DNA from: Candidatus Moranbacteria bacterium GW2011_GWC2_40_12
GTDB taxonomy: Bacteria > Patescibacteriota > Minisyncoccia > Moranbacterales > UBA11712
Length of the DNA: 64,000 nucleotides
Assembly (NCBI GenBank): GCA_000995965.1
Contig: LBYD01000003.1
Coordinates: forward strand, 17,713-81,712
Direction of reading: 5' to 3'
In this document: piece by piece, positions 21,488-52,056 of the stretch
Layout: every line of letters starts with the position of its first letter
Position numbering within the stretch: the stretch's first letter is position 1
The notes under the pieces: generated by a model
What the model was told of the DNA's origin: nothing
Database searches by the model: none
The model's input: only the letters and a program-made list of their open reading frames with translations
Translations under genes and position numbers: made by a program

Positions 21488-23104
21488 ATGAGCACCACCC
21501 TTTACCGAAAATACCGCCCGGCGACTTTTTCTGAAGTTATCGGGCAAAAGCACGTTGTGCAAACTTTGAAAAATTCCATAAAATCCGGCCGCATCGGGCA
21601 GGCTTATCTTTTTGCGGGCCCGCGGGGAACCGGAAAGACTTCGATTGCCCGAATTTTCGCAAAAACCATCAACTGCGCCGCTGACTTGGAAACTAAGTTT
21701 CCAAGTGGCGAACCCTGTCTCAAATGCATCCCATGCAAAAATATTCTTGACGGACGCGCGCTGGACATCATCGAAATTGACGCCGCTTCCCACACGGGAG
21801 TGGATAATATTCGGGAACTCAAAGAAACGGTTCAGCTCCCGCCATCCGCGCTGAAATACAAAGTATACATCATTGATGAAGTCCACATGCTCTCCGGTGG
21901 AGCATTCAATGCGCTTTTGAAAACTTTGGAAGAACCGCCGGCACACGTTATTTTCATTTTGGCGACGACCGAAGTCCACAAAATTCCGGAAACAATTCTT
22001 TCCCGCGTCCAACGGTTTAATTTCACCCGGCTCACCGTTGAAGAAATAACCAGCCGGCTCGAGGATCTGGCAAAACTCGAAAAAGTCAAAGTGGACCGCG
22101 AAGCACTCGAAATCATCGCCACGAGCTCCGAAGGCGGAATGCGGAACGCCGAAAGCCTTCTCGGACAAATCATCGCTCTCGAAGACAAAAAAATCACCAC
22201 CAAAGAAGTGGAGTTTCTTCTCGGGACAATTTCCGAGAAAGAACTGTCTGATTTTGTCGGCGCGATCATTGAAAAAAACATTCCTGAATCTTTTTCAAAA
22301 ATCAGTAAATTGCGGGAATCAGGAATCGATTTCAAAAATTTCGGAAAGTCACTCTTAAACTATCTTCGCCAAATGCTTGTTCTCAAAATAAACCCGGAAC
22401 TTGGAAAAAAATTGTCCTATGAACTGACAAAAGAGAGACTCAAACAGATAAATGACCAGATCAATAATATTGAACTTTCCGAAATTTTGGATCTGATAAA
22501 CACGCTTCAGGAAAATACTGAAAAATTCCGCAACAGTCCCATTCCCCAGTTATTCTTGGAAGTAAGCCTCGCGAAAACGGTTTGCAGACGTCCAGCGCCT
22601 GCAAATACGGCTGCAACACCTGCTAGCTCCAAAAATGAAACTGCTTTGGCCGCGCTTTTGCAAGTTGAGCTTTCAGCCAAGAAAAAAGAAATTGCTTCAA
22701 AAAATGACAAGCCGGAAGAGACAGATGCGAAATTCAGAAATAAGAACGTCAATAATCCCGATGAAGACTTCGGCCTCATTCTTTCCCGTTGGCTGGATAT
22801 CATCGAATCTCTGAAAATTTACAATCATTCCCTCTCTTCAGTGCTTAAAATGTCCCAACCGATGCTGATTGACGGAAAATATCTGATTCTCCGGACAAAA
22901 TATTCTTTCTACAATGACAAAATCTCCGAAACCCAGAACCGGTTGACAATTGAAAAAGCGATTGATAAGATAACCGGCGTTGTTTTGCGGCTAAAAGCCA
23001 TCACGGAAAAAGATTTTTCTTCGCAGTTTCCGGATTTCAAGGAGAAGAAAAGTTTGATCCAAGAAGCGGTCGACATATTCGGCGGCAAGATAGTAAAGGA
23101 ATAG
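21488..23104 (+). CDS. dnaX: DNA polymerase III subunit gamma/tau
   Basis: Carries AGPRGTGKTSIARIFAK (Walker A), the Zn module CxxC...C, a DEVHML Walker B and SRVQRF. Confidence 0.95.
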   Translation: MSTTLYRKYRPATFSEVIGQKHVVQTLKNSIKSGRIGQAYLFAGPRGTGKTSIARIFAKTINCAADLETKFPSGEPCLKCIPCKNILDGRALDIIEIDAASHTGVDNIRELKETVQLPPSALKYKVYIIDEVHMLSGGAFNALLKTLEEPPAHVIFILATTEVHKIPETILSRVQRFNFTRLTVEEITSRLEDLAKLEKVKVDREALEIIATSSEGGMRNAESLLGQIIALEDKKITTKEVEFLLGTISEKELSDFVGAIIEKNIPESFSKISKLRESGIDFKNFGKSLLNYLRQMLVLKINPELGKKLSYELTKERLKQINDQINNIELSEILDLINTLQENTEKFRNSPIPQLFLEVSLAKTVCRRPAPANTAATPASSKNETALAALLQVELSAKKKEIASKNDKPEETDAKFRNKNVNNPDEDFGLILSRWLDIIESLKIYNHSLSSVLKMSQPMLIDGKYLILRTKYSFYNDKISETQNRLTIEKAIDKITGVVLRLKAITEKDFSSQFPDFKEKKSLIQEAVDIFGGKIVKE

Positions 23105-23218: not shown

Positions 23219-23233
23219 AAAAATACAATTAAT

Positions 23234-23501
23234 ATGCACTATATATATTCTGTTTCTTTTAAACAGGGATTTATACAAAGGGCGAACTGATGACCTTAGA
23301 AGACGCATCGAGGAACATAGACGAGGCAAAGTTAAATCAACGAGAAATTATTTACCAGTCAAGCTTATTCACTATGAAGCCTATCTCGATAGGAAGGACG
23401 CCGAAAGAAGAGAAACATTTCTAAAAACAACGGAAGGAAGAAGGTTGTTAAAGCAACAGTTAAAAGAATCATTAATAAAATTGAACATCATTAAAAACTA
23501 G
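23234..23501 (+). pseudogene. GIY-YIG nuclease family protein, frameshifted (about 88 aa if restored)
   Basis: Frame A reads MHYIYSVSFKQGF, then frame B reads LYKGRTDDLRRRIEEHRRGKVKSTRNYLPVKLIHYEAYLDRKDAERRETFLK... . Joining across a 1-nt slip in a T-run near 23270 gives the canonical GIY..YxGxTxDLxxRxxxH...E motif order. Confidence 0.6.
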
Positions 23502-23737: not shown

Positions 23738-23920
23738 ATGAGCGCACAAAAAAAAGGATATCTGATTAGTGGAGAAAAGACGGAACAAGCCAAGCAGGAA
23801 ATTGCCGCAATCCTACAGAATCTCAAAAACGACACTGGCCTGGCCGTCGAAGCCATCACTGTGAAACATCGCGAGGGCAAAGTGGACCGCATCCACTTCC
23901 AACCCCTCGGCGCCGCTTAG
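23738..23920 (+). CDS. small hypothetical protein (60 aa) with strong SD
   Basis: aggaggtttgggagg immediately precedes the ATG. Followed by the terminator at 23947. The track ORF 23669 is an N-terminal over-extension. Confidence 0.5.
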   Translation: MSAQKKGYLISGEKTEQAKQEIAAILQNLKNDTGLAVEAITVKHREGKVDRIHFQPLGAA

Positions 23921-23946
23921 CCTGCGCCCCTGCCACTATCATTTCC

Positions 23947-23980: not shown

Positions 23981-24093
23981 TCCAAAATAAAAAGTGGTCA
24001 ATTGCATCCACGTGGACAAATTTGACTACCTCGAAAAAATGGCTAAAAAAATATTTAAAAAACACCCCTCGGCGGTTTTCCGCTTTGGGGTGC

Positions 24094-24666
24094 TCATTTT
24101 TCGCAGGAATTGTGCTTGGCTAAAATTTCTGCGAAAGTGTGAATTTGATGGATGTCTCCATCGAGATGCAGCGTCAGAAATTCTGTATCTGGCCTGACCT
24201 CGGGCATGGCCGAAAGAAATGTTCGGCAATTGCCTCAGGGAAGCAGGGTTGGGTGCAGAAGACCGCTCTTGTGATCCTCTTGCGGCTGGCCGACAATCAC
24301 AACGCCGACAATCAATTCATACCCGGCATGACGCGCAGCTTGAGCAGCAACGGTTTCAGCGCACAAATTTGGCCCATCAGCCACCGGTTTCATATTCGAT
24401 CCCCTGAATATCTTATAAAAATCTTCGATATAATAGGGCTGCGAATTGAAAGCATAAAGCGCGCATCCTACGCAAAAATTCCTGTAGGACATAGCGCAAG
24501 TAGCCGCCATTCTTCTGGCCTCATCGATCAGATACTCGGCAATTTGCCAAAATGCGGGAAGATGAAGATTCTGCATTTCAAAAGCTTTCTCTTCTTCAGA
24601 TAATTCCCTCCAGCGTCTGCGCCGCTCAATGAGTTTTTTATAAGCTTCGACATCCGGTCCGTACAT
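24094..24666 (-). CDS. cytidine deaminase-like protein interrupted by an in-frame TGA at the second zinc-ligand Cys position (pseudogene or recoding)
   Basis: The track ORF 24235..24666 contains AMSYRNFCVGCAL (cf. Cdd APYSKFKVGAAL) and CAETVAAQAA (cf. CAERTAL). Immediately after the TGA the same frame continues GNCRTFLSAM...EFLTLHLDGDIHQIHTFAEIL, matching the Cdd PCGACRQ...VLTNL...ELLP tail. Together that is 190 aa. Confidence 0.55.
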
Positions 24667-24883
24667 CTTCCCTCCTCACCTCCTTTTTTTGTTGATTTTT
24701 CGGACTTCGCAATTTATAATACGTCGCCGGATTTGTCAATAGGCGTAAAAAAACCGAAAATAAATCTTTGGAAAAATAATTAATCCGGTCAATCCGATTT
24801 AAGGACTATCCTTGACTATAATCATAAAAAGAATTACGTAGCTAGTTACGTAATTCTTGAATACTTGAAAATAGTTGCCAGCC

Positions 24884-25813
24884 TTACAGCCCGTATTTCT
24901 TGATCAGTTTTTTGTAAGCCTTGGCCTGTTTTTTTGTGTAGGTCCCGTCTTCAATGCTGTTCATTATTTCCCAATATTTCCGCGAATCTTTCCAGTCGCT
25001 TTTCGCTTTCAAGGTTTTTCCATCGGAAAGGACCGTGATAAGATAAGGATCTTCGTCTTTTTGAGAGCCCTCGAAAGTAATCATCTTCCTGTAGTTCGGC
25101 TGAATGATGCAATAACCGGTGTCGCGAAAATCGTATTCCGGGGCGCATTTCACTCCAGCGACTTCGTGATTCGGCGAAAGAAAAACAATTTTCGCCGTGC
25201 CATATCCGAGCTCTTTCAAAAGGTAAACAATCAAGGACGATTTTTCGCTGCAGATTCCTGAATTTTCAAAAAGCGTTTCGTATGGATAGCGGGATCCGTG
25301 TCCCCGTCCGCTGTCGATGATCTCCGTGCCGGTTGATTTGTTGTAATCATAATCGATATTTTGGACAAGACTTGCAGCCGCCCGCACCCGGTCGCCGGAT
25401 TTTTTGATTTTCTTGTTGAGCCATCGCACCAGCGGCGCCAAAGCCTCCCTCTGATCGGAACGCCCCAATAAGCGGTCATTGTAGCAATCGGCCAGAGTCG
25501 GATATCCCTGGCAGTTGTAATCGGGAAGTGCGAAAATTGTCTGATAGACCGAAGAATCAGTCGGCACTTTATAATTTTTCTTTTTCCCGTTGACCACCGC
25601 TTTCACCTGCTGCTTGCCGTCAAAGGCGGCGCCGGCAGGAAGAGCAAACGATAAAACAAGACCAATCGCGACAATTTTTGTTTTGAGCCTGCCCGAAATG
25701 CTTTGATTGCTTTCTTTTCTTGGCATATCTTTGTTTTTTTGATTTATTTTTTTGTGCCCGGATATTTTCCCGCATTTCAAAGCAGGCGGGCATATTTTTA
25801 TTTTAGTTTTCAT
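24884..25813 (-). CDS. exported transglutaminase-like cysteine protease-fold protein
   Basis: N-terminal hydrophobic segment IVAIGLVLSFALPAGAA. Cys/His pair: ...ENSGICSEKSSLIVYLLKELGY and ...SPNHEVAGVKC, with Cys-His in the order of the transglutaminase-like core. Confidence 0.5.
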   Translation of the reverse strand: MKTKIKICPPALKCGKISGHKKINQKNKDMPRKESNQSISGRLKTKIVAIGLVLSFALPAGAAFDGKQQVKAVVNGKKKNYKVPTDSSVYQTIFALPDYNCQGYPTLADCYNDRLLGRSDQREALAPLVRWLNKKIKKSGDRVRAAASLVQNIDYDYNKSTGTEIIDSGRGHGSRYPYETLFENSGICSEKSSLIVYLLKELGYGTAKIVFLSPNHEVAGVKCAPEYDFRDTGYCIIQPNYRKMITFEGSQKDEDPYLITVLSDGKTLKAKSDWKDSRKYWEIMNSIEDGTYTKKQAKAYKKLIKKYGL

Positions 25814-42889: not shown

Positions 42890-45427
42890 TTACAACGGTT
42901 TCTCTCCCATATCAAACGCGTCGGCTGTCGCGGCCGCAGCGACAAAACTGGCTTTTTTCTTGATCTCCTCATTCACTATATCACGATTCCTGCCATATTT
43001 CAACTTAGAAAGTTCTTTTATCGCTTCGGCCACTTTCGCATTGCCTTTTGTCGGCGGATAAGTTTTCAGATTGAATGGCGTCGCCACCTGGCTCGCGATA
43101 AGAAGTTTCACAAAAGCGTTGTGATTGTCCACGTTCATCAAATCATTGGCGTCAAAAGACGGCTCGAATTGTTTTTGGACAAATTCTGCGTCCTCGGCCC
43201 CGATACGAAACGAACAAAGTGAACCAACATTGCCGAAAACGGCCTTGGAGATTTCCTCTTTGAGCTGGGCAATGAATTGATGGGCGATTACAAGCGCCAG
43301 GCGGTATTTGCGGGCTTCTGAAAGTATCTGGGCGATGGAATCAGTGGTGAAATTCTGAAATTCATCGATATACAAGAAAAAATCTTTGCGCTCCTTTTCC
43401 GGCATATCCACTCGCGACAGAGCTGAAATCAAAATTTTTCCGACGATTATCATTCCAAGCAGATTGGCGTTGATTTCGCCTATTTTTCCTTTTGAAAGAT
43501 TGACGAGGATTATCCGCCGATCGTCCATCGCCTGGCGGAAGTTGATTGTTGATTTTTCCTGAGCGATGATCGGCCGCATCATGTCATTTGAAATAAATTG
43601 AGTAAGTTTTGACGTAATATAAGGAACCATATTGGCAAGAGCCGCTTCACCCCCCGCTTTTTCTGCTTCTTTTTCCCAGAAATTCTTGACAACCGGATTC
43701 TGGCAGTGCTGAAGTTTCATATGGCGGAATTCTTCGTCCGCCAAAACCCGCGGAATTTCCATAAGCGTCGAACCGGAATCCGGGTGCTCCATCACGAGAA
43801 GCGCCGCATTTCGCATATACTGTTCGAACATTGGTCCGCCAGTTTGGCGCAAGTCGTACAGTTTGTCAAAAATGTTTATCATTTCGTTTATAACGAACGT
43901 TTTTTGCTCCGGTTTTTTCTGGTCATATTCCAGCATATTGAGTCCGAAAGGCCTTTCCATATCGGCCGGATCGAAATAAATCACGTCTTCCGCCCGCTCC
44001 TTAGGGATAGATTCAATGACATCATCAACCAGGTCACCATGCGGGTCAATCACGCAGACTCCTTCGCCATTTTTGATATCCTGTTTAACCATTTCCTGAA
44101 TCATGGTCGATTTTCCGGTTCCGGTTTGCCCGATGATATAAAAGTGCCTCCGCCTGTCATCCTGGCTGTGGCGAACGACTGTTTCCACGCCCCGATAATC
44201 GTTGAAGCCGAGAATGATGCCTTCTTGGGAAATATTGCTGGGCGGCGCGGAAGTGCGAGACTTGAGCCAGGCGATTTTTGGAGTTTCAGTGGAAAGAAGC
44301 GGAAAGTGAAAAATACTCGCCACTTCCTCGGAAGAAAGGACGATTCCCTGATTTTCCTTGAAATTCCGGAAAATAAAATCAAAGGCGATATCTTTTTTGC
44401 GCATCCTGTCTTCTCTCATCACCCGAAACCGATTCAAGCCCGGATTTTCATATTGGATAAAGGCATTTTCAAGTTGAGCCAAAACTTGCTCTGACCGCTC
44501 TTGCGTGAGAGCCGAGGATACCAGTCGAATGTTGACCGAAAATCCCGGCTTGTTCGATTTTCCCTCGATTTTTTTTATGATTTCCTGCTCTTCAGGAGTA
44601 AGCTGAATGGGATCCTTGTCACTTTTCAAAATATCTTTTTTTTGGCTATCATCTTTCTTTACGGCCATTTTGAAAAATCCCCGAAAAAATTCACGGATGT
44701 AATTGTCTTTTTTCACATCCGAAAGACGCCTTCCCTGCTGCATCTTGTGAGCCACTTCCCGTCCCTTGCTCCTCCAGTCGCCCCGTGCCGGTTTCACCAA
44801 AAGCTGTATTGCGGCTCCTTCTTTTTTTTCTTCGAACTTTCCCAAAACGTTGGTTATATTGTTGAGCGGATCGGATTCCAAAAACTGATAAGTGCGAATG
44901 GGGAAATGGTTCTTCTCGCTTAGTTTCAGAAAGGACGCTGCCGTGAAACTCCCCGGTGAAAAAATATTATAATCCTTTACTCTTTCGACAGCCGCTTTGG
45001 GATAAAAGCTTTGGATTTGGCGCTCAATAATATTGATGAATTTTTTCGGCGCCCCGACATAAAAAGAAATTTCGTCTGAGTTTGACGGATTGGCCATTTC
45101 AAGGGCGATGACCGCGTCGCCATAGATCAACCGGTGGAAAATACCAGTTTTTTCCTTGATGTTACCGAGGCTGGCAAGAAGATGCTCCATCACGGATATG
45201 AGCTCTTTGTCATTTTTTGGCGGCTGTTGCTGCTGAGACTGCTGGCTTTGGGCTTTGAGCGGCCGGCTCACTTTCACAATATCTATGTCCATATTGAGCG
45301 AACGTGTCACCTGACCGCGGAAAGAGACAAAACTTCTGAATATCATCAAAAAAGCCGATCCGAAGCTTAGAGCGGCCAGAAGAAAAGCAATAGGATATAA
45401 AATTAGGTTTAGGTTGTAGATGTCCAT
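42890..45427 (-). CDS. membrane-anchored P-loop ATPase of the VirD4/TraG/TraD (type IV coupling protein) / VirB4 superfamily
   Basis: 845 aa with an N-terminal TM helix. Walker A IIGQTGTGKST, Walker B FFLYIDEFQNF, and RKYRLALVIAHQFIAQL (the RKxG...QSxxQL-type motif). Confidence 0.75.
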   Translation of the reverse strand: MDIYNLNLILYPIAFLLAALSFGSAFLMIFRSFVSFRGQVTRSLNMDIDIVKVSRPLKAQSQQSQQQQPPKNDKELISVMEHLLASLGNIKEKTGIFHRLIYGDAVIALEMANPSNSDEISFYVGAPKKFINIIERQIQSFYPKAAVERVKDYNIFSPGSFTAASFLKLSEKNHFPIRTYQFLESDPLNNITNVLGKFEEKKEGAAIQLLVKPARGDWRSKGREVAHKMQQGRRLSDVKKDNYIREFFRGFFKMAVKKDDSQKKDILKSDKDPIQLTPEEQEIIKKIEGKSNKPGFSVNIRLVSSALTQERSEQVLAQLENAFIQYENPGLNRFRVMREDRMRKKDIAFDFIFRNFKENQGIVLSSEEVASIFHFPLLSTETPKIAWLKSRTSAPPSNISQEGIILGFNDYRGVETVVRHSQDDRRRHFYIIGQTGTGKSTMIQEMVKQDIKNGEGVCVIDPHGDLVDDVIESIPKERAEDVIYFDPADMERPFGLNMLEYDQKKPEQKTFVINEMINIFDKLYDLRQTGGPMFEQYMRNAALLVMEHPDSGSTLMEIPRVLADEEFRHMKLQHCQNPVVKNFWEKEAEKAGGEAALANMVPYITSKLTQFISNDMMRPIIAQEKSTINFRQAMDDRRIILVNLSKGKIGEINANLLGMIIVGKILISALSRVDMPEKERKDFFLYIDEFQNFTTDSIAQILSEARKYRLALVIAHQFIAQLKEEISKAVFGNVGSLCSFRIGAEDAEFVQKQFEPSFDANDLMNVDNHNAFVKLLIASQVATPFNLKTYPPTKGNAKVAEAIKELSKLKYGRNRDIVNEEIKKKASFVAAAATADAFDMGEKPL

Positions 45428-46970: not shown

Positions 46971-49208
46971 TTAAAGTCTATTTTTAATACTCAAGTTTTT
47001 GAATAAATGGAAATTAGTCCTCGACATCCGCTCAAGATATTGCTGCATTGTTTCCCGTGCATTGAGAGGGGGAAATTTTTGAAAGGTTTCCTGGGTGAAC
47101 TTAGTCGCTTTTCCCATTTGAGTTATCTCACTATACGTCGATGGTAGCGGCGTATCGCTGGTAACCCCGGGACTCAATCTACTGATTGCCTCATGAACTT
47201 GAGAGGCAGGCGTGTTGAGTTTGAAGCCACCTAAGTTTTCAAGCCAGCTGTTCCAAAGCCGCGCGTTGGCGCTGGTGAGTCCCGCTATTGCCTGTTCATT
47301 CAAAGCTTGAGCTTCGACTCCAAGCCGCGCTATTTTTTCAGCGCTTGCGGCCGACGAAGTTCCCGGCCGGCCGCTTGTCACGTCTTCCCAACGGGCTTTT
47401 GCTTTAGCCTCCATTGCTTCAGCCGCTCTCATTTTTTGATCAGCAATGCTTTCCACCGCTCTTCCTCCACCCCGCACATGATGTTCTGCTGCCGCAGCCG
47501 CCTTTCCCGCACCGTGAGCCGGCTCGTGATGAACGGCTCCAGCCTTGATTTGTGAAGTGTCTCCCACAAACAATTTTCCTTTATCATCCAAAGTCACCAT
47601 ATAGCCCTCTCTGACTACTGACGGCAATTTTCCTCCATGGTGGCTCTTATACCATTCCATCGCATTGGCGGTTTTGTTTTCCGCGAGGATTTTTATTTTT
47701 TGGGCGTCTGACAAATCATTGAAATTATCAGCATTGATCCCCATTCGGCTCAAGAAACCCTGCTTTTTGAGAGAATGAAACAAATTTTGGATTTTTGGAT
47801 CATCAGGCTTAAGATTATATTCCTTCGCGTGTTCTATATACATATCTCTTGTCACCTTCCAGACATTTTCACCGGATTTGATCCTGTGCGAATCACCCAA
47901 AAACGGCTTGCTTGTTTTTTCCGGAGCAACCGATCCTCCAGCCTTGGGCTGCACTTCCGCGTCAGAAATCGGGCTGTGCGCCGGTTCATAGAAACCGGTT
48001 TTCCCGCCCCCGAAGGAATGGGTGATTTTATCCCAGGCCTGGCTAAAAAATCCTTTTATGCCCGCCGCATAATGGCTTACAATAGTGCCTGCGATAAATG
48101 TTCCGCCAGCTAGTCCAAGAGCGAGAAGCTTTTGTTTTCTGTCTTTTGAAGCAAATGTTTGTTCTTCCTCGCCGATCGATTTTCCACCCTCCATCCCTTC
48201 GACAAATTGTATCCATTCTTCCTCAGTTTTGCTCTTTATTGCCTCAATTTGTCTCAAAACATCTTGTTGCACTTCTTTCTTTTTGGCTTCAATGGTCCCT
48301 GCTTCCATTCTTTTTTTTGCCGCGTAACCGGCTCCCACAGCGCTGAAACCACGCCATATAGCGGCCGCTGATGCGCCCGCCGATCCAACAGCCACAACGC
48401 CCAAAGCGGGCAAACTGGCCGCAATCAGTGACGTCGCGGCAAAACCAATAGCTCCAGCCGTTGCAACTCCTTTTGCAACTCCTTTTGCGGTCAATTTTCC
48501 ATCCACGAGAAACTGTTTGGAGACAAAATCTCGATAATTTTTGCCAACATTCGCAAAGCCCACAAGAGCTTTGCCTGGCCACCATTTCGAATTTTCAGCT
48601 CGCAGTTTGTCTTCCTCTGCCCTTGACCTGATAGCGATCGCAGAAATATGGTATTCGGCTAAAAAAGTTTCAAGCTCCCGTTCATTTTCCCTGAATGCTC
48701 TATATCCAGCCATTTTCAATTTCCGAAGTAGTTCCTCTCTCTTTTCCAAAAATTCTTTTATCTCGTCATCCTTCGCCTTTCTTTTTGTAAGACCGACGGA
48801 TTCTAAAGCGCTTGATATAACCCGCCACTTCCTGCCCACTCCTTCTCTCCCTTTGAAAATTTTCTCCTCATTCCCGTCGAATTCCTGCTTTATTTTTTCA
48901 AATTCTTCATGATTTTTTCTTTCATTTTCCGCACTTAAAGCGTCAGATTTGGCTTTTGCTCCTTCAGAATCTTCCTCGCTTGGCCCGCTTTCTTTGTTTT
49001 CCGGATTTACGTCGTTTCTCCCTCCTGACAAATCTTGCGCGGCGGCCGGTTCTTCATCTGGGGGCATTTTATTCTCGCTCAAATCTGGCTCAGATGCGGC
49101 GCCTGTCTTTGCCTTTTTGTTTTCTTCAGAACTTTCCGGAGTTCCGGCGGCAGTTGCACCAGGAGCCTGGCCAGCTTCAGGAAACCTTCCTTTTTTTATT
49201 ATTCCCAT
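46971..49208 (-). CDS. large membrane protein with Gly/Ala-rich hydrophobic segments, function unknown
   Basis: 745 aa. The acidic N-terminal region is low-complexity. TM-like segments GVATAGAIGFAATSLIAASLPALGVVAVGSAGASAAAIW and LLALGLAGGTFIAGTIV. Locally elevated GC. Confidence 0.6.
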   Translation of the reverse strand: MGIIKKGRFPEAGQAPGATAAGTPESSEENKKAKTGAASEPDLSENKMPPDEEPAAAQDLSGGRNDVNPENKESGPSEEDSEGAKAKSDALSAENERKNHEEFEKIKQEFDGNEEKIFKGREGVGRKWRVISSALESVGLTKRKAKDDEIKEFLEKREELLRKLKMAGYRAFRENERELETFLAEYHISAIAIRSRAEEDKLRAENSKWWPGKALVGFANVGKNYRDFVSKQFLVDGKLTAKGVAKGVATAGAIGFAATSLIAASLPALGVVAVGSAGASAAAIWRGFSAVGAGYAAKKRMEAGTIEAKKKEVQQDVLRQIEAIKSKTEEEWIQFVEGMEGGKSIGEEEQTFASKDRKQKLLALGLAGGTFIAGTIVSHYAAGIKGFFSQAWDKITHSFGGGKTGFYEPAHSPISDAEVQPKAGGSVAPEKTSKPFLGDSHRIKSGENVWKVTRDMYIEHAKEYNLKPDDPKIQNLFHSLKKQGFLSRMGINADNFNDLSDAQKIKILAENKTANAMEWYKSHHGGKLPSVVREGYMVTLDDKGKLFVGDTSQIKAGAVHHEPAHGAGKAAAAAEHHVRGGGRAVESIADQKMRAAEAMEAKAKARWEDVTSGRPGTSSAASAEKIARLGVEAQALNEQAIAGLTSANARLWNSWLENLGGFKLNTPASQVHEAISRLSPGVTSDTPLPSTYSEITQMGKATKFTQETFQKFPPLNARETMQQYLERMSRTNFHLFKNLSIKNRL

Positions 49209-49224
49209 TATTATAAAGTTAATT

Positions 49225-50754
49225 TTATGATTTTTTTGCGCCTCGAATGAACTCTTCCAGCAAAATTCTGCTGTTATAATATCTGATAATCAGCTTGGCA
49301 TTTTCTTTGTCATAACCGGCTTTTCCGGCTTCACCTTCCAGCTCTCCCCGAAATTCATTCTTGAACTTTCCCGACTCTTCCGCTGTTGAAATCTTTCTTT
49401 CTTTTTTTTCCTCGAAATAATCATCCAATACTTCTGGATTCAGAAAATATCTTTGAAAAAAAGCGACATCGAAGTTTTCTTTCGAAACGATCTCCCTGAA
49501 AACTCTTTTCAGCGAATTGAGAATGCTCATGTTATCCTTGCGAGCCTTATCCGCGTCTTCTGGCTTCATTTCTTTGTATTTTTTCTCGACTTCTTTATTC
49601 AAATTTGTGATTCCCGCTCTATTCACCAATTCCACGTATTTTTTCTTTTGCTCTTCGTTTAGCTTGTCATATTCTCTTTCTTTCATGGCCTCTCCATTGC
49701 CCTTTTTTTGGTGCGCCTCCGATGCCAAAAGCGATGCCACTTCCCCTGGTTGAAGATTCGGCGCTGGTTCATCTGGTGCGGGTGATGATCCTTTTTTTTG
49801 TTCTGCATCGCCCGATATTTTTCCTTTCGGCAAAATTTTTATGATTTCCTGTCCCCTTGAAAAAGCATTTGTTGCTACCCGCCGGGCTTCGGTTATAATC
49901 AGCTGATCAGCTAATGGGCTTTCGTATTCATCTCCCAACAATTTGAGAATCAGACCCGCGTGTCCGTCAATATTTTCGAGGATTTTATGCCTGATTTTCC
50001 CTTTTTCATGCTCCAGCCTCCCGTAATCGACGCCCAAAATCTTCTTTTTTTCGACGAATGCGTCTATCCTCGCCACACTTTCAGCAATGGCTTGCCTAAT
50101 CGCCTCAACAATTTTTTTTCTCATTTCCTTCTGTTTCGAATTTTCGCCTGATTTGTCAATGGTCATTTCGCCAGCGTCCGGCACGTCCTCGCCCAGTAAA
50201 ATTTTTACCTTTTTTATTTGCTCTTCAATGATGCCGAGATTTTTTTCCGATCTAGTTTTTTCCGCAGCGGCTTCTAGCGCGTGCCTGTAATAGCCCAGAA
50301 TGGCTTTCGTAGTTTCATCCCTGATTTCAGGAATTTGATTCAGATTATTTTCCAAAATAACCTTTTCCAGCTCTTCTGTCCCATTTTGATATTTTTTGGA
50401 AAGGGCATCCAGGGTGTATCCCAAGCAACTTTTCGCAATTTCGTCCTCCTCCAGCAATTTTCGCGTTCTCTTCACCCAAGGCGCAAGGACTTTCAACCCG
50501 TTTTCATTCAGGATTTTGGTTAAATTGCTTTCGTTGGAAAATAATTTTTCATAGTATTCTTTTATTTTTTCGATGTAATCTTTTTTCGGACTATCCGGAC
50601 CTTTTTCTCCTTTTCCATCGACTGGCAAATCGGCTGGAGGCAAAGGAGAATCTTCAGCGCTTTGTCTCGCAGCAGTTTCCTGAGGTGAATCTTCCGGCAT
50701 CGCTCCTTCAGGCGGCTCTTCTATTCTCTTTCGATGTATATTTTCTTCAGCCAT
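49225..50754 (-). CDS. charged coiled-coil-rich hypothetical protein
   Basis: ~509 aa from ATG 50754; the track starts at GTG 50769. No TM helix. K/E-rich. Confidence 0.55.
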   Translation of the reverse strand: MAEENIHRKRIEEPPEGAMPEDSPQETAARQSAEDSPLPPADLPVDGKGEKGPDSPKKDYIEKIKEYYEKLFSNESNLTKILNENGLKVLAPWVKRTRKLLEEDEIAKSCLGYTLDALSKKYQNGTEELEKVILENNLNQIPEIRDETTKAILGYYRHALEAAAEKTRSEKNLGIIEEQIKKVKILLGEDVPDAGEMTIDKSGENSKQKEMRKKIVEAIRQAIAESVARIDAFVEKKKILGVDYGRLEHEKGKIRHKILENIDGHAGLILKLLGDEYESPLADQLIITEARRVATNAFSRGQEIIKILPKGKISGDAEQKKGSSPAPDEPAPNLQPGEVASLLASEAHQKKGNGEAMKEREYDKLNEEQKKKYVELVNRAGITNLNKEVEKKYKEMKPEDADKARKDNMSILNSLKRVFREIVSKENFDVAFFQRYFLNPEVLDDYFEEKKERKISTAEESGKFKNEFRGELEGEAGKAGYDKENAKLIIRYYNSRILLEEFIRGAKKS

Positions 50755-50978
50755 TTTTTTATATTTCACAAACCAAAACTAAACTTATCTTATAAGTCTC
50801 CAAAATTTTTGTTTTTATATTACGTTTAAATTATACCACAAAAACTTTCTGAAGTGAACAACTCTCGGCGGTGTGGATAAGTCCGAGCAATTTTCTCTCA
50901 AAAGAAAAAGCCCCAGCGCCGCCCTCGAGTGGAAATCCACATGGGTTTGGCGCCAGAGGCTTTGAAGTTTGGCGATCC

Positions 50979-51839
50979 CTATTCAGTTGCCCTCACTTTC
51001 AGTTCAAATGAGTGGAGCTGTCCATGATTGTATTCAACCGAAATTCGACTTTCTCCTTTTCGGTTGCCAATATAAACATTGGGCGTGATTATCTTGAGCG
51101 CTTCCCCCTCAATCCTGATTTTTTCACAGGTAGTGATTCTGTCGGTCCGGATCAGCATTATGCCTTTGTCCACGGGCATAGTTATAGTCGAACCGTTAGC
51201 AAGGACGCCCCGATCCACCGTGGTTGCTCTCTTTTTACGGCGCACGATTTCCCCCAAACGGGCAGATATTTTTCCATCACTCATATTGAAGGAAACGATA
51301 TATCCGCCCGCATAGAGAAGGAGATTTTTGCCCACAATTTCATCTTTGAAAATAACTTTGCCGCCTTCGAACTCTATGACCGATGATCTCAAGCTGGACC
51401 ATTCAATCAAGCGCCCGCCTTCGGCCGTGAGAGAGCCGCACTCCAGAAACCGTTCCGGAAAAACTTTTTCCAATTTCCTGGCATGCGGATAGAAACAGAA
51501 GAAAGAATAACTCAAATTTCCGGAACTGCCTTCTTTTTTGACAAAAACGATACCGTCATCGCCATTGAAGAAATTCTTGACAATGAGGATTGAATTGGCC
51601 TCAAGTTCTCCGGAGCAGAAAACCTCTTCTTTTTCTTCGTCGCCATCGAAGAAATACTTCGAAATTTCATACTTGGCTTTCCCGTTGTCAGCCCATTGGT
51701 GCCAAAGGGCATACTCCTGATACAATCGGTTAAAATACAAGATTTCCCACACACCCTGCCGGTTAGCGGCCAAGGCATTTGTGCCGATTATTAAAGAAAA
51801 AAAGAGAACAAACCGCAATATCCACAATTTTTTGGCCAT
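50979..51839 (-). CDS. secreted hypothetical protein
   Basis: Signal peptide MAKKLWILRFVLFFSLIIGTNALA at ATG 51839. Hairpin with U-tract terminator downstream at ~50918-50975. Confidence 0.55.
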   Translation of the reverse strand: MAKKLWILRFVLFFSLIIGTNALAANRQGVWEILYFNRLYQEYALWHQWADNGKAKYEISKYFFDGDEEKEEVFCSGELEANSILIVKNFFNGDDGIVFVKKEGSSGNLSYSFFCFYPHARKLEKVFPERFLECGSLTAEGGRLIEWSSLRSSVIEFEGGKVIFKDEIVGKNLLLYAGGYIVSFNMSDGKISARLGEIVRRKKRATTVDRGVLANGSTITMPVDKGIMLIRTDRITTCEKIRIEGEALKIITPNVYIGNRKGESRISVEYNHGQLHSFELKVRATE

Positions 51840-52056
51840 TTCCTTTCCCCTCCCACTGAAATTTTGAGCGCTTTGCCGCCTTGCCCCGCACCAAAAATGC
51901 GCTTTTCGCATTTTTTCGATGATTCTCGAATTTTGGTGCGGGGTGAAAAAACGCTTTGTTTCTTTGACTAATGCTTAGAACAGAAAAAAGATATTGTCAA
52001 GCCTCGCGGTTGTGCTGTATAATATGATCATCGGAATAACTTCTAAAACAGAAATG

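What the first reader, a model, noticed from the sequence alone, without database searches (positions are those of the whole stretch)
24094..24666. Cytidine-deaminase-like gene with an in-frame TGA exactly at the second zinc-ligand cysteine
The ORF before the TGA carries the Cdd substrate-loop motif (SYRNFCVGCAL) and the CAE zinc/catalytic motif. Directly after the TGA the same frame reads GNCRTF..., which aligns to the Cdd PCGACRQ motif with the TGA at the first Cys. The frame then continues for 46 more conserved residues (EFLTLHLDGDIHQIHTFAEIL). TGA is a true stop elsewhere (clpB ends in TGA; long genes are unbroken), so code 4/25 is unlikely. The options are a nonsense pseudogene, a sequencing error, or selenocysteine/cysteine recoding at a metal-ligand position. 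A hairpin (gccgaacauuucuuucggc) starts 8 nt after the UGA.
Basis: partly seen in the sequence, partly recalled or inferred. Interest (0 to 1): 0.7.

Follow-up and report, generated by a model that had tools for sequence, protein, structure and literature searches.

The report
Young nonsense pseudogene of a deaminase
A small cytidine-deaminase-like gene in an uncultured groundwater bacterium (Candidatus Moranbacteria) carries a genuine stop codon in place of an essential zinc-binding cysteine, and the evidence points to an ordinary, recent gene-killing mutation, not to selenocysteine or another special decoding.

Summary
On the minus strand (24666..24094) a 190-codon ORF of the cytidine-deaminase superfamily is interrupted at codon 144 by TGA (24235-24237). 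That codon aligns with the first Cys of the PCxxC zinc motif.

The TGA is a real base. Six contigs from different assemblies of the same near-clonal Candidatus Moranbacteria population all carry it, and the truncated 143-aa product is indexed in 72 blocks of the collection.

All four intact orthologues found have TGC or TGT at this codon. All 28 aligned members of the wider family have Cys there. TGA ends normal genes in the window, so the standard code applies.

The hairpin after the TGA is the same, and slightly more stable, in an orthologue that has TGC. Its apical loop has no G. No SECIS, tRNA-Sec or sel gene was found in about 84 kb of this genome.

The window lineage shows purifying selection over the gene as a whole (6 of 15 changes nonsynonymous, p=0.002) and no decay after the TGA, so the mutation is recent.

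Best reading: a young, fixed nonsense pseudogene of an unnamed Cdd-like accessory gene. Recoding cannot be excluded, because the rest of the genome could not be searched, but nothing supports it.

The parts
24238..24666 (-). 5' part of the deaminase ORF, codons 1-143. It holds the SYRNFCVGCAL loop (residues 60-70) and the C102-A-E104 zinc/catalytic motif.
   Evidence: The identical 143-aa product P0004 is annotated as a hypothetical protein in several Ca. Moranbacteria MAGs.
24235..24237 (-). In-frame TGA at codon 144, replacing the family-invariant second zinc-ligand Cys.
   Evidence: Orthologues have TGC (L001, L002, L003) or TGT (L011).
24097..24234 (-). 46 codons after the TGA in the same frame (GNCRTF...SCEK). 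This stretch holds the third zinc ligand C147 and the conserved C-terminus.
   Evidence: No frameshift or further stop. On the window branch there is 1 nonsynonymous and 2 synonymous changes.
24094..24096 (-). Ancestral (full-length) stop codon, TGA.
24198..24239 (-). Stem-loop that spans and follows the TGA. Its inner hairpin GCCGAACAUUUCUUUCGGC lies at 24209-24227.
   Evidence: MFE -23.2 kcal/mol, z -2.19; the same or a stronger hairpin in L001, which has TGC; weaker in L011; absent in L002.
24670..24683 (-). Shine-Dalgarno region GGAGGTGAGGAGGG upstream of the ATG at 24664-24666. GGAGGTGAGGA is invariant in four aligned sequences (window, L001, L002, L003).
24711..24739 (-). Promoter-like site: TTGACA, 17-nt spacer, TAAATT.
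   Evidence: This is a consensus match only.
24054..24095 (-). Intrinsic terminator directly after the full-length stop: stem-loop at 24060-24095, then a U tract. It is conserved in the orthologues.
   Evidence: MFE -21.2 kcal/mol, z -4.07, 0 of 200 shuffles fold as well.

Best explanation
The gene is a recently inactivated copy (a nonsense pseudogene) of a small accessory deaminase. The deaminase belongs to an unnamed clade of the cytidine-deaminase superfamily that is related to homotetrameric Cdd.

A single transversion, TGC or TGT to TGA, replaced the second of three zinc-ligand cysteines. RF2-dependent termination at that codon is inferred. It would yield a 143-residue product that lacks two of the three zinc ligands (C144 and C147) and the C-terminal strands, so the product should be catalytically dead.

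The allele is fixed in a near-clonal Candidatus Moranbacteria groundwater population. The promoter, ribosome-binding site, downstream frame and terminator are intact only because too little time has passed for them to decay.

Shown directly:
- the TGA, and its reproducibility across assemblies;
- Cys codons at this site in all four intact orthologues found;
- invariance of this Cys in 28 aligned members of the wider family;
- use of the standard genetic code in the window.

Inferred:
- that translation actually stops at the TGA;
- that the truncated product is inactive.
For: 1. **The TGA is a real base.** Six contigs from JGI, ENA and NCBI assemblies have the identical 573-nt gene with TGA. 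They are 99-100% identical to the window over up to 6.4 kb. Two of them differ from the window by small indels, so they are not copies of one assembly. The exact 143-aa product is listed in 72 index blocks and carries four GenBank protein accessions (KKR43744.1, KKT33262.1, HBB36418.1, HBU25581.1).
2. **Orthologues encode Cys.** The four intact orthologues found have TGC (L001, L002, L003) or TGT (L011).
3. **The residue is essential.** C144 and C147 are two of only ten invariant columns in 28 family members. They align to the PCxxC zinc ligands of solved tetrameric CDAs.
4. **TGA is an ordinary stop here.** It ends 26 of 73 long ORFs, including ClpB, PBP2 and UvrB. I saw no other TGA-interrupted gene in the window (checked against the Pfam-annotated genes).
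5. **The mutation is recent.** On the window branch 6 of 15 substitutions are nonsynonymous, against a neutral expectation of 0.77 (p=0.002). There is no indel or second stop after the TGA.
6. **Nothing specific to recoding was found.** The hairpin is ancestral: L001 has TGC and folds to -24.0 kcal/mol. There is no SECIS hit and no tRNA-Sec. No SelA, SelB or SelD domain appears in about 84 kb of this genome.
7. **The gene looks dispensable.** The orthologue group itself is rare. Five distinct sequences were found, and the genome and metagenome scans added only the L001 contig again.
Against: - The post-TGA frame is fully open and nearly unchanged (1 nonsynonymous and 2 synonymous changes on the window branch). 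All expression signals are intact. A gene that is still translated through the TGA would look the same.
- With only three informative downstream changes, the test for relaxed selection has no power (p=0.13).
- The allele is fixed in every sampled contig of this strain. No contig of this genotype with Cys was found.
- A stem-loop somewhat more stable than shuffled controls does start just after the UGA (z -2.19).
- Only about 84 kb of this genome could be inspected for selenocysteine machinery.
Confidence: 0.8

Rival explanations
1. Leaky termination. The UGA is occasionally read by a near-cognate tRNA (tRNA-Cys GCA or tRNA-Trp CCA). The small Cys-inserted fraction would give some active full-length enzyme, so the gene would be hypomorphic, not dead.
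For: - The downstream frame, the terminator placed after the full-length stop, and the expression signals are all intact.
- There is no excess of nonsynonymous change after the TGA.
- From general knowledge: UGA is the leakiest stop codon in bacteria.
Against: - From general knowledge, bacterial UGA read-through mainly inserts Trp. Trp at an invariant zinc-ligand position would not restore activity.
- No read-through-promoting feature specific to the TGA allele was found. The hairpin predates the mutation.
- An intact downstream frame is equally expected for a young pseudogene, and the selection test has no power.
Confidence: 0.1
2. Programmed recoding of the UGA as selenocysteine, directed by the downstream stem-loop acting as a bacterial SECIS. 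A variant is recoding as cysteine through a tRNA-Cys(UCA)/SelB-type system. Either would give a deaminase with Sec or Cys as a zinc ligand.
For: - The UGA aligns exactly with a Cys in all homologues, which is the classic Sec/Cys-pair signature.
- A stem-loop begins 8 nt after the UGA.
- The allele is fixed in the population and the downstream frame is intact.
- UGA-to-Cys recoding by a non-canonical tRNA-Cys with SelB has a published precedent: Vargas-Rodriguez et al. 2018, RNA Biol 15:471. I saw it only as a reference in PMC8762117 and did not read it.
Against: - Only this one near-clonal strain has TGA. All four intact orthologues have TGC or TGT.
- The hairpin is identical, and slightly more stable, in L001, which encodes Cys. 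It is degraded in L011 and L002 without compensatory changes.
- Its apical loop, CAUUUCU, lacks the G expected in bacterial SECIS loops. That criterion comes from my own knowledge of the bSECISearch model.
- There is no Rfam SECIS hit, no tRNA-Sec and no sel gene in about 84 kb.
- Full-text searches found no paper reporting Sec use in CPR, Parcubacteria or Patescibacteria. I judged this from titles and abstracts plus the three papers I opened.
- From general knowledge, known Sec residues sit in redox-active or Mo/W/Ni sites, not in structural or catalytic zinc sites.
Confidence: 0.04
3. Sequencing or assembly error: the true base is C or T and the gene is intact.
For: A single-base difference from the orthologues is all that separates this gene from an intact one.
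Against: - The same base appears in six contigs from different assemblies and data providers (JGI 3300009031, JGI 3300025309, ENA ERZ27254729, ENA ERZ28563735, GCA_003489455.1, GCA_001000395.1).
- The 143-aa product is listed in 72 index blocks and carries four GenBank protein accessions from Ca. Moranbacteria MAG records.
- L009 and L010 differ from the window by indels elsewhere, so they are separate assemblies.
- No contig of this genotype encodes Cys at the site.
Confidence: 0.02
4. The truncated 143-residue protein has been kept for a new, non-catalytic role, for example as a binding or regulatory subunit.
For: The upstream 143 codons show purifying selection on the window branch: 5 nonsynonymous and 7 synonymous changes, p=0.008.
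Against: - That selection signal is expected if the TGA arose late on the branch.
- The truncation removes two zinc ligands and the C-terminal strands of the fold, so the product is likely to be unstable.
- Among the 150 best representatives of the wider family, none ends right at this position.
Confidence: 0.03

Closest known systems
Homotetrameric cytidine deaminase (Cdd; TIGR01354 / NF004064; PDB 2d30, 1jtk, 1mq0)
   Same: - Same superfamily domain: PF00383 is passed when Cys is restored.
- Same C-A-E ... P-C-x-x-C zinc and catalytic motifs.
- Same F-x-V-G-x-A loop and similar C-terminal E-L-L segment.
- The family profile hits 2d30 at E=2.8e-15.
   Different: - Scores fall far below the NCBIfam equivalog cutoffs: 37.6 against 74, and 32.2 against 113.65.
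- There is an extra N-terminal helical region of about 45 residues, and an insert (PQEDxxSG) before the PCxxC motif.
- The N-V-E-N segment of Cdd reads N-M-K-P here. From my own knowledge that segment contacts the ribose, so the substrate may not be a free (deoxy)cytidine nucleoside.
- In the window copy the second zinc ligand is a stop codon.
Blasticidin-S deaminase (PDB 1wn5, 2z3j, 3oj6)
   Same: Same fold class and the same three-Cys zinc site. It gives a weak profile match, E about 1e-4.
   Different: The similarity is much weaker than to Cdd. Only the core (profile positions 65-141) aligns.
Bacterial selenoprotein genes (UGA plus a SECIS immediately downstream, with Cys-containing homologues)
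   Same: An in-frame UGA aligned to Cys in all homologues, and a stem-loop beginning a few nucleotides after the UGA.
   Different: - The UGA occurs in a single strain only.
- The stem-loop is shared with a Cys-encoding orthologue and is not conserved by compensatory change.
- No Sec machinery was seen in the part of the genome inspected.
- The residue is a zinc ligand, not a redox-active residue.
UGA reassignment in other CPR lineages (code 25 in Gracilibacteria and Absconditabacteria; code 4)
   Same: The organism is a CPR bacterium, and UGA appears inside a conserved ORF.
   Different: TGA terminates many ordinary genes in this window, and I saw no other gene interrupted by it.

Membership tests
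Cytidine/deoxycytidylate deaminase superfamily (PF00383) | Domain score above the Pfam gathering threshold | tested here: met
   32.6 bits against a cutoff of 25 when the TGA is read as Cys. The encoded 143-aa product alone gives 21.7 bits, below the cutoff.
Cytidine/deoxycytidylate deaminase superfamily (PF00383) | Zinc and catalytic motifs [CH]AE ... PCxxC all encoded | tested here: not met
   C102-A-E104 and C147 are encoded. The first Cys of PCxxC is TGA. All four orthologues and all 28 aligned family members have Cys there.
Canonical homotetrameric Cdd (TIGR01354 / NF004064 equivalogs) | Score above the NCBIfam equivalog cutoff | tested here: not met
   37.6 against 74 (NF004064) and 32.2 against 113.65 (TIGR01354). 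Intact relatives P0020, P0022 and P0027 also fall below the cutoffs.
Canonical homotetrameric Cdd (TIGR01354 / NF004064 equivalogs) | N-x-E-N segment after the F-x-G-x-N motif. Its role in ribose contact is from my own knowledge of the B. subtilis and human CDA structures. | tested here: not met
   Where 2d30 and 3dmo have N-V-E-N, the alignment shows N-M-K-P here. N91 is invariant and K93 nearly invariant in the family.
Bacterial selenoprotein gene | In-frame UGA aligned to Cys in homologues | tested here: met
Bacterial selenoprotein gene | SECIS stem-loop immediately 3' of the UGA, linked to the UGA, with a conserved G in the apical loop (the loop criterion is from my own knowledge) | tested here: not met
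   A stem-loop exists (z -2.19). The same hairpin is in L001, which has TGC (-24.0 kcal/mol). It is weakened in L011 and lost in L002. The loop CAUUUCU has no G. No Rfam hit.
Bacterial selenoprotein gene | selA, selB, selD and tRNA-Sec present in the genome | not testable with these tools
   None in the 64-kb window or in about 20 kb of flanks. The rest of the genome could not be fetched.
Bacterial selenoprotein gene | UGA recurring at the same site in other species of the family | tested here: not met
   Only the one near-clonal strain has TGA. Among the 150 best family representatives, none ends just before the PCxxC motif.
Alternative genetic code with UGA as a sense codon (codes 4 and 25) | UGA not used as a terminator, and frequent inside conserved genes | tested here: not met
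   26 of 73 long ORFs end in TGA, including ClpB, PBP2 and UvrB. I saw no other interrupted gene.
Nonsense pseudogene | Premature stop relative to intact orthologues that removes essential residues, and is reproducible in independent data | tested here: met
Nonsense pseudogene | Relaxed selection or decay downstream of the stop | tested here: inconclusive
   1 nonsynonymous and 2 synonymous changes after the TGA on the window branch, p=0.13. No indels.

The most novel reading that the evidence does not exclude
A CPR bacterium (Candidatus Moranbacteria) decodes this single UGA as selenocysteine or cysteine, using the pre-existing stem-loop after the codon. That would be the first recoding event reported in this radiation and the first deaminase with a recoded zinc ligand.
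Probability: 0.04. Interest if true: 0.8.

Novelty: new member of a known kind. Interest (0 to 1): 0.15.

Why it matters
As a young pseudogene it matters little. It shows an accessory deaminase being lost in a streamlined CPR genome. It is also a useful negative control for Sec/Cys-pair selenoprotein screens: a TGA-for-Cys pair with a downstream hairpin can arise by chance, at about 4-9% of the possible single-base nonsense changes in this gene.

Two side results may be of some use. The 143-aa "hypothetical protein" in several GenBank MAGs is a truncated deaminase. The gene also belongs to an unnamed, metagenome-only Cdd-like clade of 548 cluster representatives, in which the segment corresponding to Cdd's N-V-E-N is altered and the substrate is unknown.

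If recoding were real, it would extend selenocysteine or UGA-to-Cys decoding to the CPR and to a zinc site. That would be a significant surprise.

Tried and rejected
- **Code 4/25.** Rejected, because TGA ends many normal genes.
- **Sequencing error.** Rejected, because the TGA is the same across assemblies.
- **More orthologues.** The genome-contig scan found only the L001 contig again, and the metagenome-contig scan found nothing. The Sec/Cys comparison therefore rests on four intact orthologues plus the wider family.
- **Rfam.** The window at gathering thresholds and the locus at E<=10 gave no SECIS and no tRNA-Sec, only chance-level hits.
- **Structure prediction.** The three-sequence alignment gave pLDDT 44, so I ran no fold search. 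The more diverse relatives could not be submitted to that tool.
- **Profile search with the Cys-restored window protein.** I redid it with database orthologues only.
- **Literature on Sec in CPR, Parcubacteria or Patescibacteria.** No relevant report, judged from titles, abstracts and the papers opened. Mukai 2016 and Vargas-Rodriguez 2018 are not held in the library. BSepDB has no supplementary files held as text.
- **Split gene restarting at M154 (ORF 24094-24207).** Rejected. I see no Shine-Dalgarno sequence in front of that ATG, and C144 and C147 would still be missing.
- **Other TGA-interrupted genes in the window.** The mechanical scan gave only frames that overlap genes with Pfam annotation.

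Full report
**1. The observation**

The gene lies on the minus strand, 24666..24094. Translation gives 143 codons, an in-frame TGA (24235-24237), 46 more codons, and a terminal TGA.

With Cys put in place of the TGA, the protein passes Pfam PF00383 (32.6 bits against a cutoff of 25). The encoded 143-residue product alone does not (21.7 bits). phmmer against PDB chains aligns it to tetrameric cytidine deaminases, with the TGA on the first Cys of PCGxCR. A 28-member family profile gives the same alignment with 2d30 at E=2.8e-15.

The hairpin GCCGAACAUUUCUUUCGGC begins at the 8th nucleotide after the UGA. It is the core of a longer stem-loop with MFE -23.2 kcal/mol and z -2.19.

**2. Genetic code and organism**

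Of 73 stop-to-stop ORFs of 150 codons or more, 26 end in TGA. These include ClpB, a PBP2-type transpeptidase and UvrB. A mechanical scan for ORF pairs split by one stop codon produced, apart from this gene, only frames that overlap genes with Pfam annotation. The standard code therefore applies.

Exact look-ups of three window proteins place the window in Candidatus Moranbacteria (CPR/Parcubacteria) metagenome-assembled genomes, on contigs of up to about 94 kb.

**3. Is the TGA real?**

The exact 143-aa truncated product (P0004) is present in NCBI (KKR43744.1, KKT33262.1, HBB36418.1, HBU25581.1), JGI, ENA and Logan. It is listed in 72 index blocks.

Six contigs were fetched: JGI 3300009031, JGI 3300025309, ENA ERZ27254729, ENA ERZ28563735, GCA_003489455.1 and GCA_001000395.1. 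All have the identical 573-nt gene with TGA. They are 99-100% identical to the window over up to 6.4 kb. Two of them differ from the window by 25-34-nt indels elsewhere, so they are not copies of one assembly.

No member of the 90%-identity cluster is this genotype with a sense codon at the site. A one-off sequencing error is therefore excluded. The allele is fixed in a near-clonal population.

Some of these assemblies may derive from the same site or even from the same reads. From memory I took the GW2011, UBA and 'ANAN16' names to point to one aquifer study series, but I could not check the sample metadata.

**4. Orthologues**

Only four intact orthologues were found:
- P0001/L001, a Ca. Moranbacteria MAG, 89% amino-acid identity;
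- P0007/L011, 92.4% nucleotide identity;
- P0002/L002;
- P0003/L003.

Scans of GTDB species representatives and of JGI metagenomes added nothing new. The codon at the site is TGC in L001, L002 and L003 and TGT in L011.

A profile search of 1.84 billion representatives shows a wider family: 548 clusters at E<=1e-3 and 272 at E<=1e-10. In an alignment of 28 members, C144 and C147 are two of only ten invariant columns.

**5. Age of the mutation**

I polarised substitutions among the window, L011 and L001. The window branch carries 5 nonsynonymous and 7 synonymous changes before the TGA. After it there are 1 nonsynonymous and 2 synonymous changes, plus a change of the terminal stop from TAA to TGA.

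The neutral expectation for the nonsynonymous fraction is 0.77. The whole-gene count of 6 out of 15 is significantly low (p=0.002). The post-TGA count alone is uninformative (p=0.13). There is no indel or second stop downstream.

The transcription unit is intact:
- a promoter-like TTGACA/TAAATT pair;
- a conserved Shine-Dalgarno sequence;
- a strong terminator directly after the full-length stop (MFE -21.2 kcal/mol, z -4.07).

So the gene was under selection for most of the branch, and the TGA is either recent or tolerated.

**6. Tests of recoding**

The stem-loop after the UGA is not tied to the UGA. L001, which encodes Cys with TGC, has the same hairpin with a slightly lower energy (-24.0 kcal/mol). 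L011 has two synonymous changes that weaken it, with no compensation. L002 lacks it. The pairing comes from the codons for conserved G-N-C-R and S-A-M-P.

The apical loop, CAUUUCU, has no G. Bacterial SECIS loops usually have one; this is from my own knowledge of the bSECISearch model. PMC9312934 states only that a bacterial SECIS is a stem-loop immediately 3' of the UGA.

Other negative results:
- Rfam finds no SECIS at the locus, and Rfam and ARAGORN find only three ordinary tRNAs in the window.
- The flanking 20 kb of the same contig holds no tRNA-Sec.
- Pfam annotation of 40 further window genes, and the precomputed annotation of the flanks, show no SelA, SelB or SelD.
- Full-text searches found no report of selenocysteine use in CPR, Parcubacteria or Patescibacteria. 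I judged this from titles, abstracts and the papers opened.

The rest of the genome could not be fetched, so absence of the Sec machinery is not proven.

**7. Chance**

The gene has 78 possible single-base nonsense changes. Seven fall on Cys codons (all give TGA) and three on zinc-ligand Cys codons, which is 3.8%. A nonsense mutation that mimics a Sec/Cys pair is therefore expected now and then when a whole genome is scanned.

**8. What the gene was**

The family is related to homotetrameric Cdd, and more distantly to blasticidin-S deaminase. It is not an equivalog of Cdd: NCBIfam scores are 37.6 against a cutoff of 74, and 32.2 against 113.65.

It differs from Cdd in three ways:
- an N-terminal extension of about 45 residues;
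- an insert before the PCxxC motif;
- N-M-K-P where Cdd has N-V-E-N. From my own knowledge that Cdd segment contacts the ribose.

Its substrate is therefore uncertain. Relatives come almost entirely from unnamed metagenome contigs.

In both the window and L001 the gene sits between a transglutaminase-like gene and the tRNA-Gln/dnaX region. That position gives no clue to function.

**9. Verdict**

The most likely explanation (about 0.8) is a young nonsense pseudogene, fixed in one strain, of a dispensable Cdd-like gene. The inferred product is an inactive 143-residue fragment that lacks two zinc ligands.

Alternatives, with rough probabilities:
- low-level near-cognate read-through, leaving a hypomorphic gene (about 0.1);
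- Sec or Cys recoding (about 0.04);
- a new role for the truncated product (about 0.03);
- sequencing or assembly error (about 0.02).

The decisive missing computation is a search of the complete MAGs for selA, selB, selC, selD, a UCA-anticodon tRNA and prfB. Interest is low.

Noticed in passing
window 23232-23501 (+): A GIY-YIG domain ORF (PF01541, E=1.6e-11) has no ATG, GTG or TTG start. The reading frame as called begins with ATT. It is called as an 89-aa gene in only one of the public records. It may be N-terminally truncated or use an unusual start codon.
   Followed up: partly
window 25497-25530, 21616-21640 and about 23902-23926: Assemblies of the same strain differ by short indels of 25-34 nt. 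GCA_001000395.1 lacks 34 nt inside the transglutaminase-like gene and 25 nt inside dnaX, where its called products are shorter (167 and 472 aa instead of 309 and 538). ERZ28563735 lacks about 25 nt in the intergenic region. These may be real polymorphisms or assembly artefacts.
   Followed up: partly
window 24094-24666 and relatives P0020-P0168: The deaminase belongs to an unnamed Cdd-like clade of 548 cluster representatives, found almost only on unnamed metagenome contigs. Ten columns are invariant (S60, R62, V66, G67, A72, N91, E104, L141, C144, C147), and N-x-K replaces Cdd's N-x-E-N. The substrate is unknown.
   Followed up: partly
window 24006-24056 (+): Weak Rfam match to the SAM-II riboswitch: 25.3 bits against a gathering score of 44, E=0.019. 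It lies in the AT-rich spacer next to the deaminase terminator and is probably chance.
   Followed up: no
window 46971-49208, 49225-50769 and 50979-51911 (all minus strand): Three consecutive large ORFs (745, 514 and 310 aa) have no Pfam match at 1e-5. A VirD4/TrwB-like coupling-protein gene lies nearby at 42890-45427. This may be part of a secretion or DNA-uptake apparatus.
   Followed up: no
L012 15860-19433 (same contig, just beyond window position 1): NuoE-like, NuoF-like and [FeFe]-hydrogenase large-subunit genes sit in a row, which suggests a trimeric (possibly electron-bifurcating) hydrogenase in this Moranbacteria genome.
   Followed up: no
window 24664-24666 compared with L001, L002 and L003: The deaminase start codon is ATG in the window and in L011, but TTG in the three more distant orthologues. 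The Shine-Dalgarno core GGAGGTGAGGA is invariant in the window, L001, L002 and L003.
   Followed up: no
window 24829-24858 (minus strand): A perfect 12-bp palindromic stem (AAGAATTACGTA...TACGTAATTCTT) followed by a T run lies between the transglutaminase-like gene and the deaminase promoter. It is probably the terminator of the upstream gene.
   Followed up: no
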